The notes beneath the pieces are model-generated. The model was not told where the DNA came from. It did no database searches and was given only the letters and a program-made list of their open reading frames with translations. A stretch of 64,000 nucleotides of DNA from Candidatus Nomurabacteria bacterium (GTDB lineage Bacteria > Patescibacteriota > Minisyncoccia > Phycocordibacterales > UBA918): NCBI GenBank assembly GCA_020632035.1, contig JACKGG010000002.1, forward strand, positions 88,095-152,094, given 5' to 3'. Both the position numbers and the translations under genes were made by a program. Below are positions 8,194 to 47,124 of this stretch, in pieces; within the stretch, counting starts at the first letter, position 1; the number at the start of each line of letters is the position of its first letter.

Positions 8194-8210
8194 GGAGCAG
8201 GCTCGGTCAC
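8194..8210. repeat. direct partial copy of the tRNA-Phe 3' segment (12 nt, GGAGCAGGCTCG) fused to GTCAC
   Basis: Matches the tRNA-Phe gene (antisense) at 8388-8399. The match stops inside the T-loop. It sits ~175 bp from the tRNA 3' end. Confidence 0.6.
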
Positions 8211-8312
8211 TCTCACGGCTATTTTCTTCGTAAACTCATAATATAGCTCGTTCCATTGACCTCCACTCGTCGCGTTCCTCGGCTCCGCCAGCGGACTTTA
8301 TCGCGACTCGGC

Positions 8313-8380
8313 TTCGAGCCTGCTTCCAAGCTACAAACGAAAACAGCCTATATGCGGAGCATATAGGCTGTACGTTTGTG
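8313..8380. repeat. inverted 19-nt copy of the tRNA-Phe 3' end (TTCGAGCCTGCTtCCAAGC) followed by a 48-nt perfect palindrome abutting the tRNA 3' end
   Basis: 8313-8331 reads in tRNA sense on the plus strand, opposite to the gene. The palindrome is TACAAACGAAAACAGCCTATATGC-GGAG-CATATAGGCTGTACGTTTGTG. Confidence 0.65.
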
Positions 8381-8451
8381 CTTGGGAGCAGGCTCGAACT
8401 GCTGACCCTTCGCTCTTCAGGCGAATGCTCTACCAACTGAGCTACCCAAGC
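8379..8451 (-). tRNA. tRNA-Phe (anticodon GAA)
   Basis: The reverse complement gives GCTTGGG-TA-GCTC-AGTTGGTA-GAGC-A-TTCGC-CTGAAGA-GCGAA-GGGTC-AGCAG-TTCGAGC-CTGCT-CCCAAGC-A. Confidence 0.85.
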
Positions 8452-8877: not shown

Positions 8878-8930
8878 GCCCCTTTAGTTAAATGGATATA
8901 ACCGCTCACTCAGAGCGGGCATTGTAGGCT
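8878..8930 (+). repeat. pseudo-tRNA: a copy of the 5' two-thirds of tRNA-Arg (acceptor, D-arm, anticodon arm with an altered loop, start of T-stem), followed by a 27-nt hairpin
   Basis: GCCCCTTTAGTTAAATGGATATAACCGCTCAC is identical to 9062-9093, then diverges. It lacks a T-arm and 3' acceptor. The hairpin CTGAAAAAG..CTTTTTCAG is at 8931-8957. Confidence 0.7.
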
Positions 8931-9061
8931 GAAAAAGACTGGGAGACTTTTTCAGAAGGTTAACTAGCATTTTATGACGTAAGGAAATAAAATGGTGATA
9001 ACCTATACTGATCTCGTAGAGATAGATTCCGTTGGAATCGAACCTATTGGTTACAATTGAA

Positions 9062-9136
9062 TACTTAAGCCCCTTTAGTTAAATGGATATAACCGCTCAC
9101 TCCTAACGAGCAGTTGTAGGTTCGATTCCTGCAGGG
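9062..9136 (+). tRNA. tRNA-Arg (anticodon CCT)
   Basis: GCCCCTT-TA-GTTA-AATGGATA-TAAC-C-GCTCA-CTCCTAA-CGAGC-AGTT-GTAGG-TTCGATT-CCTGC-AGGGGGC-A. There is one A·C mismatch at the base of the anticodon stem. Confidence 0.75.
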
Positions 9137-9340
9137 GGCACTAAAACACAACTCAACGGTCTTTGCGTTTTTCTTGTGTACCACAATCGTTTTGGTGCGC
9201 ACATCGTTCATGTACCCCTCGGGTGCTTGGCCGGGAAACATGCCAAGGCGCACTTTTTGGCGTAATCCTTGCTTGGTGTTCTCGGAAAGAGAATCGACAT
9301 AATATTTACTTTGTCCGAAAGCCATGCTCAACATGAACTT
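9137..9340 (-). pseudogene. remnant of a large serine recombinase (end of the catalytic domain through the start of the recombinase domain), truncated at the tRNA-Arg 3' end
   Basis: ..YYVDSLSENTKQGLRQKVRLGMFPGQAPEGY.. resembles the E-helix plus the G-x-x-P-x-GY start of the large-serine-recombinase 'recombinase' domain. The catalytic N-terminus and the C-terminal ~350 aa are missing. The open frame runs on into the tRNA. Confidence 0.4.
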
Positions 9341-9454
9341 TCTTATTGAAAGGGATTTTTGGTTTGCTTCGCCATTCATTACACAATACAAAAAGTACCA
9401 CATGTATCATGTAAACACTGAAAGCTATATCCCTGGAACGATATGTTGAAACAA

Positions 9455-11246: not shown

Positions 11247-11798
11247 GTGATCCAAATGATAACATTCGAAGAAGCTTTACGGGGTTCAAAAGCTTATCCA
11301 GAGATAGTCAAAGGCTTACAATTACTTTCAGTCGAACACTTTGGGTACGATGGCAAAGTTCATACCGGTCAATTAGTAGTTCCGATTATTGCAGCTATAG
11401 AGATTCGTGAAATTTTTGAGACACTATTTTTGTTTAGTGTACCAATTGAAAAAATTATCCCGATCTCAAAATATAACTGGGATGACAATGCTTCAATGGC
11501 TGACAACAATACCTCTGCATTTAATTTCCGTACCATTGATGATGGTACCAACAGACTTTCTCCTCACTCTTGCGTTGATTACGTAGCCATTGATATTAAT
11601 CCATTCACTAATCCTTGTGTAATTGGCAACAATAACTTTCCTACTAATGCAAAATACAAGCCCGAAGCTAAGGGAGCTATATACGAAGAAGGAGTAATAC
11701 TTAGCGTATTTGAAGATAAAGGCTGGACTTGGGGTGGAAGGTTTGAGAGTATCTCAGACTACCAGCACTTTGAAAAAAGATTGTCATCGTTTAAATAA
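11247..11798 (+). CDS. M15-family peptidase (VanY / D-Ala-D-Ala carboxypeptidase-like)
   Basis: SPHSCVDYVAID (S-x-H...D zinc ligands) and GWTWGGRFESISDYQHFE (the WGG...D-x-x-HFE end motif). Confidence 0.5.
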   Translation: MIQMITFEEALRGSKAYPEIVKGLQLLSVEHFGYDGKVHTGQLVVPIIAAIEIREIFETLFLFSVPIEKIIPISKYNWDDNASMADNNTSAFNFRTIDDGTNRLSPHSCVDYVAIDINPFTNPCVIGNNNFPTNAKYKPEAKGAIYEEGVILSVFEDKGWTWGGRFESISDYQHFEKRLSSFK

Positions 11799-21534: not shown

Positions 21535-21553
21535 CCTTGCGGGTGTTTTTTGT
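21525..21553 (-). terminator. intrinsic terminator at the rnpB 3' end
   Basis: AAAAAACACCC-TTGC-GGGTGTTTTTT. Confidence 0.6.
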
Positions 21554-21900
21554 ACACATAAGCCGGATTCTGTCAGGCCGAAGCCCGGATGATTATTTAC
21601 CTAGGATGTATATTGCTATACACCTCTTGCGACTCTCTTTGCCGGCTCAAAATCCCAGAAGGATATTGAGCCGGCAAAGCGCGGTCTTGCACGCAGGTAA
21701 GGATTTAGCCGTTTCACCCTCTTGGTTTCCCAAAAGGCTATTCCCGAAGGAACTCCTCAGCTTTCGCTTTGAACGTCTCTGCTCGCACCTCTTATACTGC
21801 TATACGACGGGTGTTACCCGCTACCATCCTCCACAAATAAATGTGGGCGTGTCCGGACTTTCCTCCTCGTATAAATACGAGGCAATCATCGTGTCTGTAC
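21552..21900 (-). ncRNA. rnpB: RNase P RNA (bacterial type), ~350 nt
   Basis: The minus strand carries a P3 hairpin CCTCGTATTTATACGAGG followed by P4 GAGGAAAGTCCGGAC. Near the 3' end it carries ACAGAATCCGGCTTATG (the P4'/P2' consensus ACAGAAUCCGGCUUA). Ends are approximate. Confidence 0.75.
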
Positions 21901-22300
21901 ATTATGCAATATTATTATAAAATTGCAACTTTAATATAAAAATAAAAGGACCCTAGTGGACTCTGCCGAGCATATTGCTACTCAGCGAGGCCCACGTTAG
22001 GGTACTTGACTTTTTCCTATGAGAAGTTGCGCTATTAAGCGTCATTCTCTTTAGCTGGCCAATAGGCTGCTTTTGTAGGGTTGTTTAGCTTGAATGCCGA
22101 TTCATAATTTTAATCAACGAACTGTCGGGTCATGACAGATCATGTTTTCCTCCCATTGTTGGTTGTTTTAAAAATGTCCTGCAGTTGCTAGTATATCGCT
22201 GGATTGAGCGAGCTAGTGGTTAAAACCCACCAGAACTTCAATTTCCCGCTCGAACTGCAGGAAAGGCATACTAGCATGTAATAGATAACTTGTCAACTAT

Positions 22301-38507: not shown

Positions 38508-38583
38508 CAGGGACTCGAACTTTTATAGGTTTCTATATATAGCTCAAATGAATTTTCTGCCGGACAGGGACTCGGTCACGAAT
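38508..38583. repeat. direct partial copies of the tRNA-Gln 3' segment (13 nt at 38508-20; 18 nt at 38557-74), the second fused to GTCACGAAT
   Basis: CTGCCGGACAGGGACTCG is identical to 38735-38752 of the tRNA-Gln gene (antisense). The match ends in the T-loop. Confidence 0.65.
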
Positions 38584-38663
38584 AAATTTTCTACGAAAAT
38601 TTTTCTCGACCCCGACTCGCCGACAAGCCCTCCCTTCGGTCGTCTTGTATACCGGCTCCGTCT

Positions 38664-38718
38664 TTCGAGTCCCTGCGGTCAGGTAATTTAGTAAAACCCC
38701 AATGCATACGCATTGGGG
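38664..38718. repeat. inverted 12-nt copy of the tRNA-Gln T-arm (TTCGAGTCCCTG) plus a hairpin (CCCCAATGC-ATA-CGCATTGGGG) abutting the tRNA 3' end
   Basis: It reads in tRNA sense on the plus strand, whereas the gene is on the minus strand. Same layout as the Phe and CAT loci. Confidence 0.6.
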
Positions 38719-38733
38719 TCAAACTAAATTATG

Positions 38734-38804
38734 CTGCCGGACAGGGACTCGAACCCCGATAGACGGCACCAAAAACCGTAGTCCTACCATTAGACGATCC
38801 GGCA
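38734..38804 (-). tRNA. tRNA-Gln (anticodon TTG)
   Basis: The reverse complement gives TGCCGGA-TC-GTCT-AATGGTA-GGAC-T-ACGGT-TTTTGGT-GCCGT-CTAT-CGGGG-TTCGAGT-CCCTG-TCCGGCA-G. Confidence 0.8.
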
Positions 38805-46677: not shown

Positions 46678-46877
46678 TATAACATCATATATTTATAATT
46701 ATAAACTGACCCCTACAGTTCTATAGCAGAGAAAAGGGCAGCTATAATAAAGAAAAGACTGAGTATAAAGCCAATTATTTTCTTATTGCAGAATGAGAAA
46801 GTCTAGGAGACTTATGAAGGCTTATTAAGGGTATTTTGAAGAATGAAAAATACCTAATGAGTGGACAGGTTCTGTAA

Positions 46878-46899
46878 GGACCGGAATCGAGTCACGAAT
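46878..46899. repeat. direct partial copy of the tRNA-CAT(47054..47124) T-arm (CCGGAATCGA) fused to GTCACGAAT
   Basis: Identical to 47063-47072 of the tRNA gene (antisense). The break falls in the T-loop. GTCACGAAT is the same 9-mer as at the tRNA-Gln locus. Confidence 0.55.
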
Positions 46900-46991
46900 C
46901 ACTAAGTATATTTATTCGGATTGCTCCAAATCTACAAGTGTTCTTGACCCCGCCTCAGCCTATTTCGTCTCCCAGACGAAGGCTTCCGGCC

Positions 46992-47050
46992 GTTCGATTC
47001 CTCCCGCTGGAATAAAAACAAAACCAGCATGAAGCTGGTTTTGTTTTTAT
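46992..47050. repeat. inverted partial copy of the tRNA-CAT 3' end (GTTCGATTCC-TCCCGC) plus a bidirectional terminator hairpin abutting the tRNA 3' end
   Basis: In tRNA sense on the plus strand. The hairpin is AAAACCAGC-ATGA-GCTGGTTTT with a T-run. Confidence 0.55.
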
Positions 47051-47053
47051 TTG

Positions 47054-47124
47054 TTGCGGGGCCCGGAATCGAACCGGGGTCTGGAGGTTATGAGCCTCCC
47101 GAGGTACCTCTCCTCTACCCCGCT
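47054..47124 (-). tRNA. tRNA with a CAT anticodon and an A1·A72 mismatch (initiator-like acceptor end; could also be Ile2)
   Basis: The reverse complement gives AGCGGGG-TA-GAGG-AGAGGTA-CCTC-G-GGAGG-CTCATAA-CCTCC-AGAC-CCCGG-TTCGATT-CCGGG-CCCCGCA-A. Position 1 A does not pair with 72 A. Confidence 0.7.

What the first reader, a model, noticed from the sequence alone, without database searches (positions are those of the whole stretch)
38508..38804. tRNA-Gln carries the same tail layout: direct 18-nt 3'-end copy fused to GTCACGAAT, an inverted T-arm copy, and a hairpin
CTGCCGGACAGGGACTCG (tRNA nt 56-73+ in antisense) recurs 160 bp from the gene, and a 13-nt version a further 50 bp away. Both stop in the T-loop, as at tRNA-Phe. 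It is followed by GTCACGAAT, the identical 9-mer found at the tRNA-CAT locus. An inverted TTCGAGTCCCTG and a GC-rich hairpin then abut the tRNA 3' end. The same layout, built from different tRNA-specific sequence, points to a mechanism acting on tRNA genes rather than copies of one mobile element.
Basis: seen in the sequence. Interest (0 to 1): 0.7.

Follow-up and report, generated by a model that had tools for sequence, protein, structure and literature searches.

The report
Tiny structured insert in tRNA gene
The tail behind tRNA-Gln is a 177-bp gene-less insert in the tRNA's T-loop; it belongs to a widespread, apparently undescribed family of small folded elements that sit behind at least 19 kinds of tRNA (and tmRNA) in Patescibacteria, each copy carrying arms matched to its own tRNA.

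Summary
An exact 18-nt copy of the tRNA-Gln 3' end, the GTCAC junction, an inverted T-arm copy and a hairpin are all present.

A relative (L022) with an identical tRNA-Gln has an empty site. The window therefore carries a 177-bp insertion (38575-38751) at T-loop position 55|56. The insert brings a replacement tRNA 3' end and a terminator-like hairpin. It also brings an arm complementary to the tRNA 3' end and two conserved hairpins (P2, P3) ending in GTGAC. The distal 18-mer lies in the native flank.

The tRNA-Phe and tRNA-Met tails are homologous copies (covariance model). The same core lies 130-360 nt behind 19 tRNA types, and behind tmRNA in one locus, in more than 60 metagenomic contigs. 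It is often in tandem arrays, and the fold shows strong covariation.

A sister type forms the distal end of 4.6-4.9-kb islands that encode a large serine recombinase and a rolling-circle Rep. A relic of such a recombinase abuts tRNA-Arg in the window.

Best reading: a non-autonomous, site-specific insertion module moved in trans. The enzyme for this type is not identified. No Rfam family and no paper in the searchable library matches it.

The parts
38733..38804 (-). tRNA-Gln (anticodon UUG), complete and predicted functional. Its last 18 nt (38734-38751) lie inside the inserted unit.
   Evidence: ARAGORN; Rfam tRNA model, 53.9 bits.
38575..38751 (-). The 177-bp inserted unit. In the tRNA sense it runs from T-loop C56 through the tRNA 3' end, hairpin, inverted arm, P2 and P3 to ...GTGAC.
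   Evidence: Repeat spacing is 177 nt. The empty orthologous site in L022 aligns with the post-repeat flank (score 19; shuffles -0.25 +/- 3.6, maximum 12.5) and not with the post-tRNA sequence (-6.5).
38684..38731 (-). Terminator-like hairpin brought in by the insert (stem CCCCAATGC / GCATTGGGG, then TTTT on the tRNA strand). Together with the tRNA 3' end and the inverted arm it forms one long imperfect palindrome.
   Evidence: Inverted repeat I1, 22-nt arms, 86% complementary. The terminator function is inferred from the sequence; the simple scan did not call it.
38664..38683 (-). Inverted arm (IR-b 38664-38675 plus an IR-a-like part 38676-38683). It is complementary to the T-loop, T-stem and acceptor 3' strand of tRNA-Gln, and it forms helix P1 with either copy of the tRNA 3' end.
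   Evidence: I3, I4, I7; folds; helix 1 of the family alignment covaries with tRNA identity.
38614..38663 (-). Hairpin P2 (GAC-GGA-...-GA-GUC) with a conserved asymmetric G/A-rich internal loop.
   Evidence: The base helix covaries across 38 elements: GAC/GUC, GCC/GGC, ACC/GGU, AGC/GCU, GGC/GCC, GUC/GAC.
38575..38613 (-). Hairpin P3 (GGGGUCGAG...UUCGUGAC). Its 3' end is the insert/flank junction.
   Evidence: The G.U pair in the P3 base is conserved in 32 of 33 sequences.
38557..38574 (-). Distal direct repeat of the tRNA-Gln 3' end (C56 to G73). It lies at the start of the native flank and is read as the displaced native 3' end. It is 19 nt (from 38556) in most other strains.
38508..38520 (-). 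13-nt partial T-arm copy in the native flank. It is older than the insertion and is also present at the empty site of L022 (GGTTCGAGTCTCAGG).
8196..8324 (-). Homologous element core behind tRNA-Phe (8378-8451, minus strand). Its distal repeat CGAGCCTGCTCC is preceded by GTGAC.
   Evidence: Covariance-model hit of 19 bits, E = 0.0015; this copy was not in the model.
46881..47003 (-). Homologous element core behind tRNA-Met (47053-47124, minus strand). Junction ...ATTCGTGAC|TCGATTCCGG.
   Evidence: 77 bits. The post-junction flank is shared with L013.
9065..9403 (-). Relic of a large serine recombinase gene abutting and overlapping the 3' end of tRNA-Arg (9069-9141, + strand). It shows that recombinase-bearing elements targeting tRNAs have been in this genome. 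It is not part of the Gln insert.
   Evidence: phmmer hit to the L008 recombinase, E = 1.6e-15; translation; relatives are all 38-109 aa.

Best explanation
The tail is a 177-bp, gene-less, non-autonomous insertion module. It was placed by site-specific recombination into the T-loop of tRNA-Gln, between T55 and C56.

The module carries its own copy of the tRNA from C56 to the 3' end, so the gene stays intact. It also carries a terminator-like hairpin, an arm complementary to that tRNA 3' end, and two conserved hairpins (P2, P3). The end of P3 (GTGAC) is the crossover-proximal site. Under this reading the native tRNA 3' end was pushed 177 bp downstream and survives as the 18/19-nt direct repeat.

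The module folds, on the tRNA-sense strand, into three hairpins around a junction. Helix P1 is a duplex copy of the target tRNA's 3' end.

What is shown:
- the insertion, and the position of the distal repeat at the start of the native flank;
- family membership;
- the selected fold;
- arms specific to each tRNA;
- tandem arrays;
- a sister type that forms the distal end of autonomous islands carrying a serine recombinase and a Rep.

What is inferred:
- that the tRNA-proximal copy came in with the insert and the distal repeat is the displaced native end (the two are identical in this window);
- that this type is moved in trans by a recombinase encoded elsewhere;
- that the fold is the form the enzyme recognises, as single-stranded DNA or as RNA;
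- that solo units arose from autonomous elements by loss of their genes.
For: Insertion. L022 has a 100% identical tRNA-Gln followed directly by sequence homologous to the window's post-repeat flank.

Polymorphism at the orthologous tRNA-Gln. Different species show type A, type B, recombinase islands or nothing.

Family in the window. The covariance model finds exactly three hits, behind Gln, Met and Phe.

Spread. A 16-mer from the P3 end gave more than 120 metagenomic stretches. 60 elements have a tRNA within 450 nt upstream, covering 19 tRNA types, and one locus has a 4-unit array behind tmRNA.

Arms specific to each tRNA. The 12 nt after the junction match the cognate tRNA at 8.07 of 12 positions, against 6.22 +/- 0.13 in swapped controls. 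An exact inverted copy of 11 nt or more is present in 33 of 60 elements, against about 1% of controls.

Fold. 94% of cells are paired against 25-38% in slid controls, with 88 double-change cells against 8-11. The P3 base has a conserved G.U pair. The tRNA-sense strand folds 9-17 kcal/mol better than the antisense strand.

Arrays and hybrids of different types occur.

Autonomous relatives. The type B unit sits at the distal end of 4.6-4.9-kb islands in L008 and L097/L098. These islands begin with a large serine recombinase whose ORF runs into tRNA-Gln; those of L097-L099 also carry REP_ORF2-G2P. A recombinase relic lies at tRNA-Arg in the window.
Against: - No recombinase was found next to type A units: only 2 distant hits among 81 cores, neither adjacent. 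Cargo-bearing type A units also lack one.
- One protein is unlikely to recognise targets as different as 19 tRNAs and two sublocations (GTGAC|CGA.. or CAA.. in the T-loop; GTGAC|CAC at the 3' terminus).
- No excised or circular form has been seen.
- In L009 the distal repeat behind tRNA-Asp is incompatible with that tRNA's 5' acceptor strand. It therefore cannot be a recently displaced native end.
- Some elements look old and fixed. The Met flank is shared by the window and L013.
- The strong conservation of the fold would also fit a host function.
Confidence: 0.6

Rival explanations
1. Target choice is guided by base pairing. The element's inverted arms (IR-a and IR-b) act as guides that pair with the sense strand of the target. 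The target is the tRNA 3' end or, in some copies, the trailer. One core family can then be directed to any tRNA. This would resemble the guide sequences of IS608-type single-strand transposons or the bridge RNAs of IS110 elements. The enzyme could be an HUH/Rep-type nuclease, a tyrosine recombinase acting on folded single strands, or something new.
For: - The same core, with an identical 16-mer at its end, sits at 19 tRNA types, at tmRNA and at two sublocations. The only common property of the sites is complementarity between the arm and the sequence after the junction.
- In L009 two cores differ at 1 nt over about 116 nt, yet have entirely different arms that each pair within their own unit: a trailer target after tRNA-Asp and a T-loop target in tRNA-Thr.
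- Type B has three separate segments complementary to the tRNA.
- Folding is strand-specific.
- The sister-type islands of L097-L099 carry a rolling-circle Rep.
Against: - No enzyme has been identified.
- Identical cores with different arms can also arise by gene conversion between copies. In L101 the Arg and Gly copies share 98% of P3 but only 56% of P2, a mosaic pattern.
- The arm usually matches the tRNA-proximal copy at least as well as the distal copy. That is expected simply from a palindrome carried by the element.
- Nothing here shows pairing in trans.
Confidence: 0.2
2. The unit is a host-beneficial structured non-coding RNA. One possibility is a mimic of the acceptor/T-arm half of its neighbouring tRNA, acting as a decoy, a processing signal or a regulator. 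It would have arisen by partial tRNA duplication and be kept by selection, not by mobility.
For: - Strong covariation, conserved asymmetric G/A-rich internal loops, and a conserved G.U pair on the tRNA-sense strand.
- The fold appears to persist at an old, probably orthologous site (Met in the window and in L013).
- The elements lie in streamlined genomes, where useless DNA is usually lost.
Against: - A terminator-like hairpin lies directly upstream, and no promoter is predicted on either strand.
- The orthologous tRNA-Gln shows presence or absence and different types.
- Many copies have decayed distal repeats and arms.
- There are tandem arrays of up to 4 units, A/B hybrids, and cargo-bearing copies.
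- The inverted arm is an exact complement of the 3' strand, not a copy of the tRNA 5' half.
- The sister type is part of recombinase islands.
Confidence: 0.12
3. The units are inert scars. They would be what remains of the distal (attR) side of larger integrated islands after deletion of their genes, with no independent mobility or function.
For: - The type B unit is the distal end of islands, and these islands contain an internal pseudo tRNA 3' end that could mediate such deletions.
- A recombinase relic lies in the window.
- Many copies are degenerate.
Against: - Solo units have a uniform, complete architecture at dozens of sites. The tRNA 3' end is matched to the arm and an own terminator-like hairpin is present. 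Random deletions would not reproduce that.
- The fold is kept through compensatory changes.
- Several different units sit in one array.
- No type A island was found at all.
Confidence: 0.07
4. Chance similarity or local replication slippage.
For: None beyond the short length of some repeats.
Against: - The exact 18-mer has a chance expectation of 0.02.
- Homologous copies exist at three tRNAs in the window and at more than 60 metagenomic loci.
- The insertion has defined ends relative to an empty site.
Confidence: 0.01

Closest known systems
Site-specific integrative elements that target the T-loop / 3' end of tRNA and tmRNA genes (sublocation classes of Williams 2002, Nucleic Acids Res 30:866; cited from memory and listed as reference 29 in bioRxiv 10.1101/2020.12.28.424599)
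   Same: The insertion lies inside the tRNA gene. The identity block runs from the T-loop to the 3' end. The tRNA is regenerated by a copy carried in the insert. A partial tRNA is left as a direct repeat. tmRNA is also a target.
   Different: The unit is 110-180 bp and has no genes. It has a conserved, covarying three-hairpin fold whose arm is complementary to the tRNA 3' end. One family covers at least 19 tRNA types.
Tycheposons and their tRNA-seeded islands in Prochlorococcus (bioRxiv 10.1101/2020.12.28.424599, read)
   Same: Repeated integrations occur at one tRNA. Newer elements push older ones distally. Units are separated by partial tRNA copies. Degenerate remnants and cargo-only pieces are present.
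   Different: Tycheposons carry integrases that are each specific for one tRNA, mostly tyrosine recombinases. No small structured gene-less unit is described for them. The hosts here are Patescibacteria, and the autonomous relatives found carry a large serine recombinase, in L097-L099 with a rolling-circle Rep.
Non-autonomous derivatives of integrative elements and transposons (CIMEs of Streptococcus, MITEs; from memory)
   Same: No recombinase gene. Both recombination ends are retained. Several copies per genome. For type B, an autonomous relative shares the end structure.
   Different: The ends are not simple terminal inverted repeats. One end is a copy of the target tRNA. No autonomous partner was found for type A.
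Folded single-strand recombination sites: integron attC sites and the CTX-phi attP(+) hairpin (from memory)
   Same: The fold is strand-specific. A hairpin stem reproduces the duplex of the target site. The crossover lies at the base of a hairpin. Head-to-tail arrays exist, with or without small cargo.
   Different: The junction motif is GTGAC|C, not GTTRRRY. No integron integrase or Xer site is seen. The target is a tRNA T-loop. Single-strand recombination has not been shown.
IS200/IS605-type single-strand transposons and their gene-less PATE derivatives, which read the target by DNA base pairing (IS608; from memory)
   Same: Subterminal hairpins, strand specificity, gene-less derivatives, and target-complementary sequence inside the element.
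   Different: The complementary arms are 8-20 nt rather than 4 nt, and they pair with sequence 3' of the insertion point. No Y1 transposase or TnpB was found nearby. The element duplicates part of its target.

Membership tests
tRNA-targeting site-specific integrative element (att-flanked insert) | The insert is flanked by direct repeats made of the tRNA 3' segment, and the tRNA gene remains intact | tested here: met
   An 18/19-nt exact repeat starts at T-loop C56. The tRNA scores as a normal tRNA.
tRNA-targeting site-specific integrative element (att-flanked insert) | An empty site exists in a relative, with the flank joined directly to the tRNA | tested here: met
   L022: identical tRNA-Gln, and its flank is homologous to the window's post-repeat flank (score 19 against shuffles -0.25 +/- 3.6). 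The relative is distant (PyrG 68% identical), so this is not a same-species comparison.
tRNA-targeting site-specific integrative element (att-flanked insert) | A recombinase gene is encoded inside the element, next to the att site | tested here: not met
   The 177-bp unit has no room for a gene. Only 2 distant recombinase hits were found among 81 type A cores. The feature is met for the sister type B in L008 and L097.
tRNA-targeting site-specific integrative element (att-flanked insert) | Excision gives a circular junction and a restored site | not testable with these tools
   No read data are available. Several assemblies break inside the unit, which may reflect repeats or variation.
Non-autonomous (MITE/CIME-like) derivative | Several homologous gene-less copies per genome retain both ends | tested here: met
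   Three copies in 64 kb. 20 hits in 971 kb of related loci.
Non-autonomous (MITE/CIME-like) derivative | An autonomous partner shares the same ends | tested here: inconclusive
   Found for type B. Not found for type A in 80 metagenomic loci, 87 genomic loci or the IMG/VR viral contigs.
Integron cassette / attC site | R''-L''...L'-R' hairpin with a GTTRRRY crossover box and an IntI integrase | tested here: not met
   The junction is GTGAC|C(G/A)A. No conserved GTTRRRY box is seen. IntI was not searched genome-wide.
Known RNA families (Rfam 15), including ribozymes, tmRNA, Y RNA-like and HEARO/omega RNAs | Match to a curated covariance model | tested here: not met
   Only tRNAs and RNase P reach the gathering score. 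A permissive scan of the unit gave only weak hits far below each family's gathering score (microRNA, sRNA and similar hairpin models).
Large serine recombinase attP site | About 50 bp of duplex with two half-sites around a 2-nt crossover, recognised by a cognate large serine recombinase | not testable with these tools
   In L023 the repeat boundaries fall symmetrically around the T-loop TCGA with a 2-nt offset, which is suggestive only. The variable right half-site across 19 tRNAs argues against recognition by one protein.
IS200/IS605-type single-strand transposon derivative (PATE) | Subterminal hairpins on one strand, and a Y1 transposase or TnpB partner | tested here: inconclusive
   Hairpins and strand bias are present. 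No partner was seen near the elements. No genome-wide search was possible.

The most novel reading that the evidence does not exclude
These are programmable mini-elements. A conserved three-hairpin core carries exchangeable arms that base-pair with the sequence 3' of the insertion point. One element family, with one enzyme yet to be identified, can thereby home to the T-loop or 3' end of any tRNA or tmRNA gene while always restoring the gene. This would be a nucleic-acid-guided insertion system in Patescibacteria, distinct from known integrases, IS110 bridge-RNA systems and IS605 systems.
Probability: 0.2. Interest if true: 0.88.

Novelty: new variant of a known kind. Interest (0 to 1): 0.68.

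Why it matters
Integration into tRNA genes is a classic theme. It is normally explained by an integrase that is specific for one tRNA.

Here a tiny gene-less unit with a selected fold is found behind at least 19 tRNA types and tmRNA in the reduced genomes of Patescibacteria. These organisms are uncultured, and their mobile elements are poorly known.

If the arms direct the insertion, this would be a compact, naturally retargetable insertion system. It would also explain how such elements spread without destroying essential single-copy tRNA genes.

Even on the conservative reading, three practical points follow:
- The family explains frequent assembly breaks next to tRNA genes in these genomes.
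- It marks tRNA genes as cassette-accumulating sites in this lineage.
- It supplies a new covarying structured motif that is absent from Rfam.

Tried and rejected
- Known RNA families. Rfam at gathering score on the window and on 7 loci, and a permissive scan on the unit itself, gave nothing relevant.
- Hammerhead or other ribozyme cores, a degenerate tRNA pseudogene, a retroviral-type primer-binding site. All were considered by eye and rejected. The arm is the exact complement of the 3' strand, not a copy of the tRNA 5' half. The repeat lacks CCA and does not stop at A58.
- Phage origin. Scans of IMG/VR with a type B motif and with the type A 16-mer gave only chance hits inside coding regions.
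- Recombinase next to type A units. phmmer with the L008 recombinase against all ORFs of 80 metagenomic loci gave 2 non-adjacent hits. Pfam on cargo and neighbouring genes gave HTH proteins, SmpB, FtsH, RecG and an ABC transporter.
- Full-length relatives of the window's recombinase relic. Only 38-109-aa fragments exist.
- Promoter for an RNA of the unit. None is predicted on either strand.
- Literature. Five full-text searches found nothing describing the element (one further query was rejected on syntax). The corpus is limited to open-access papers and bioRxiv.
- L081, a contig of the same strain group with unrelated sequence upstream of the last 6 nt of the tRNA. It could not be resolved as variant or chimera.
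- A model with a long target-site duplication (U-V-U in L023, 50-nt duplication in L009). Considered, but it does not fit the empty site in L022.

Full report
**1. What is in the window**

The window is a roughly 42% G+C bacterial segment with housekeeping genes (CTP synthase, HIT, FtsX/FtsE) and eight tRNAs. The closest genomes are all Patescibacteria MAGs variously labelled Paceibacteria, Parcubacteria or Saccharibacteria. Their PyrG is at most 78% identical.

tRNA-Gln(UUG) lies on the minus strand at 38733/4-38804.

- The 18-mer CTGCCGGACAGGGACTCG occurs at 38557-38574 and inside the tRNA at 38734-38751. The chance expectation is 0.02.
- GTCACGAAT is fused to the distal copy. It recurs at the tRNA-Met tail.
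- The inverted TTCGAGTCCCTG is at 38664-38675.
- A hairpin at 38684-38731 abuts the tRNA.
- A 13-nt third copy is at 38508-38520.

In six of eight other assemblies of the same strain group the repeat is 19 nt.

**2. It is an insertion with defined ends**

Among 54 tRNA-Gln genes from the 80 related loci and the window, most lying downstream of pyrG, L022 has a tRNA-Gln identical to the window's. It is followed directly by AACACAATTTAGCTATATTTAGCAACATTAATTTGGTTCGAGTCTCAGG.

That sequence aligns with what follows the distal repeat in the window. The score is 19, against -0.25 +/- 3.6 for 500 shuffles (maximum 12.5). It does not align with what follows the tRNA (score -6.5).

So 177 bp (38575-38751) are extra in the window. 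In the tRNA sense the insert runs from T-loop C56 through the tRNA 3' end to ...GTGAC. It contains a hairpin followed by TTTT, an arm complementary to the tRNA 3' end, and two hairpins, P2 and P3.

The distal 18/19-mer and everything beyond it are the native flank. The 13-nt third copy belongs to that old flank and is not part of this event. The other species at this orthologous tRNA carry type A units, a different type B unit, recombinase-bearing islands, or nothing.

**3. The three tails in the window are one family**

All three tails fold the same way on the tRNA-sense strand. A long closing helix P1 is formed by the arm with the tRNA 3' end. It is followed by GAA, then P2, then GGG, then P3 ending in GTGAC at the junction.

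I built a covariance model from 33 cores, including Gln and Met but not Phe. It finds exactly three significant hits in the 64 kb:

| Element | Score | E-value |
|---|---|---|
| Met | 77 bits | 5.2e-21 |
| Gln | 72 bits | 2.1e-19 |
| Phe | 19 bits | 0.0015 |

**4. The family is widespread and its arms follow the tRNA**

In the 80 pyrG loci and the window, about 35 of 169 tRNAs (Gln, Met, Thr, Asp, Phe) have a downstream direct and/or inverted copy of their own 3' end.

- Sixty elements have a tRNA within 450 nt upstream. These cover 19 tRNA types.
- One four-unit array follows a tmRNA gene next to smpB.
- The base after GTGAC is almost always C. It continues as CGA.. or CAA.. (T-loop position 56) in 40 of 60. 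In 12 of 60 it continues as CAC at the very 3' end of the tRNA.
- The 12 nt after the junction match the cognate tRNA at 8.07 of 12 positions, against 6.22 +/- 0.13 when swapped among tRNA types.
- An exact inverted copy of 11 nt or more of the cognate 3' end lies upstream of the core in 33 of 60, against about 1% of swapped controls.

The arm is the Watson-Crick complement of the 3' strand. It is not a copy of the tRNA's 5' half. For example it reads CAGGG where the tRNA T-stem has CGGGG, and GCGAG.. where the L009 tRNA-Asp 5' strand has GCGGG...

**5. The fold is under selection**

On the alignment of 33 cores, 23 consensus pairs are 94.1% paired, against 25-38% when the partners are slid. 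There are 88 cells with changes on both sides, against 8-11 in the slid controls. The covariation score is 0.312 against 0.05-0.08.

The P2 base helix appears as GAC/GUC, GCC/GGC, ACC/GGU, AGC/GCU, GGC/GCC and GUC/GAC.

A G.U pair in the P3 base is kept in 32 of 33 sequences. For types A and C the tRNA-sense strand folds 9-17 kcal/mol better than the antisense strand. The tRNA-sense strand is therefore the one that folds, whether as RNA or as single-stranded DNA.

No Rfam family matches. No promoter is predicted in or around the unit.

**6. Link to autonomous elements**

A sister type, type B, has the junction motif ..GUACUGAA-NN-UGUAAG|UUCGA... It shares the arm / H1 hairpin / arm layout, and the GAGCGAAGCGAA loop motif recurs in the hairpins of all types. 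It occurs solo, for example in L023 and L045.

It also occurs as the distal end of 4.6-4.9-kb islands in L008 and L097/L098. These islands start at tRNA-Gln with a 480-500-aa large serine recombinase whose ORF runs into the antisense of the tRNA. Those of L097-L099 also carry a REP_ORF2-G2P rolling-circle replication protein and a zeta-toxin gene. This recombinase family has more than 4,700 members.

In the window, a fragment of such a recombinase abuts tRNA-Arg. The island-borne unit has an internal pseudo tRNA 3' end. Recombination between it and the real 3' end could delete the genes and leave a solo unit. This step is inference.

For type A no recombinase neighbour was found. Some type A units carry 1.6-2.2 kb of cargo without one.

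**7. Arrays, hybrids and open points**

Units occur head to tail, up to four in L164, and also in L132, L128 and L123. Subtypes are mixed within arrays. A/B hybrids exist in L126, and a B-then-C array follows tRNA-Asp in L009. This fits repeated insertion at one site, as described for tycheposon islands.

Three things remain unexplained.

- In L009, two cores differing at 1 nt over about 116 nt have unrelated arms, each complementary to its own flank. This could be recent spread with arm replacement. It could also be gene conversion between copies; the mosaic in L101 favours conversion or recombination.
- Some duplications are long: 95 nt in L023 and about 50 nt in L009.
- The L009 distal repeat behind tRNA-Asp cannot be that tRNA's native end.

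**8. Verdict**

There is a process specific to tRNA genes, but it is carried out through copies of one family of small mobile modules.

The most likely mechanism is site-specific insertion at T-loop 55|56 of a non-autonomous unit that restores the tRNA and is moved in trans. The enzyme is unknown for this type, and a large serine recombinase is implicated for the sister type.

The fold and the target-matched arms leave room for a guided, retargetable mechanism, to which I give a probability of about 0.2. I found no description of the unit in Rfam or in the searchable literature, but that corpus is limited.

Noticed in passing
window 8878-8921, 8929-8955, 9034-9046, with tRNA-Arg at 9069-9141 (+): The first 34-44 nt of tRNA-Arg are duplicated 191 nt upstream of the gene (91% identical over 44 nt). 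The copy is followed by a hairpin and by a 13-nt exact inverted copy of the tRNA-Arg T-arm. This is a tail-like layout on the 5' side, as if an insert sat in the anticodon loop.
   Followed up: partly
window 9065-9403 (-): A 112-aa ORF is a fragment of a large serine recombinase (end of the catalytic domain and start of the recombinase domain) fused to the antisense of tRNA-Arg. Its closest relatives in the 5.8-billion-protein set are all short (38-109 aa) and 52-98% identical. A truncated form therefore seems conserved across related genomes.
   Followed up: partly
L081 1-410 (GCA_020632025.1, end of contig JACKGK010000005.1): An assembly of the same strain group is identical to the window from the last 6 nt of tRNA-Gln onward. 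Upstream it has 410 nt of unrelated sequence with no tRNA, containing GTGACCGAGG and GTGACCGAAG motifs. It is either a structural variant at the tRNA 3' end or a chimera.
   Followed up: partly
L082, L083, L084, L088 (contig ends, equivalent to window ~38579-38597): Four independent assemblies end inside the 177-bp unit, in the P3 hairpin. In the pyrG set, L001, L003 and L009 end at or just after tRNA-Gln. These elements seem to break assemblies.
   Followed up: no
L027 519-2650: tRNA-Thr is followed by a 2-kb insert holding a single ABC-transporter gene and no recombinase. After it comes a copy of about 33-36 nt of the tRNA 3' part, starting in the anticodon stem / variable region. It is a single-gene cassette in a tRNA gene.
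   Followed up: partly
L164 13154-14240: A tmRNA gene next to smpB is followed by four head-to-tail units of the same family. They have different P3 variants (junction ends GAGAC, GTGAC, GGGAC, GTGAC) and P1 hairpins of very different length.
   Followed up: yes
L009 446-581 and 1430-1565: Two cores in one genome differ at 1 nt over about 116 nt. Their arms are unrelated: one pairs with the trailer after tRNA-Asp, the other with the T-loop and 3' end of tRNA-Thr.
   Followed up: partly
window 38508-38556 and L022 7830-7880: The native flank behind tRNA-Gln (an AT-rich stretch with AGCTATAT(A/T)TAG, then a partial T-arm copy GTTCGAGTC) is conserved between two species whose downstream genes differ. 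It could be an older relic or a functional signal.
   Followed up: no
window 46868-46890 and L013 ~2020-2050: Behind the tRNA-Met that carries the element, the post-junction sequence TCGATTCCGGTYCTTACAGAACCTGT is shared by the window and L013. The cores, however, are of different subtype (A-like and C-like). This suggests an old, possibly fixed element whose fold was kept.
   Followed up: no
L008 8190-8250; L093, L097 near 11425-11443: The large serine recombinase ORFs end inside the antisense of tRNA-Gln. In L008 the ORF as listed reaches about 60 nt into the gene; the called genes in L093 and L097 overlap it by about 13 nt. The L008 C-terminus reads ...LADRDSNPD..., the antisense of the T-arm.
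   Followed up: no
L045 95-321 (-): A group I intron (Rfam, 63 bits) lies near the tRNA cluster of a related genome.
   Followed up: no
window 21547-21901 (-): The RNase P RNA only just passes the Rfam class A threshold (106.4 bits against 100). This fits a divergent, reduced lineage.
   Followed up: no
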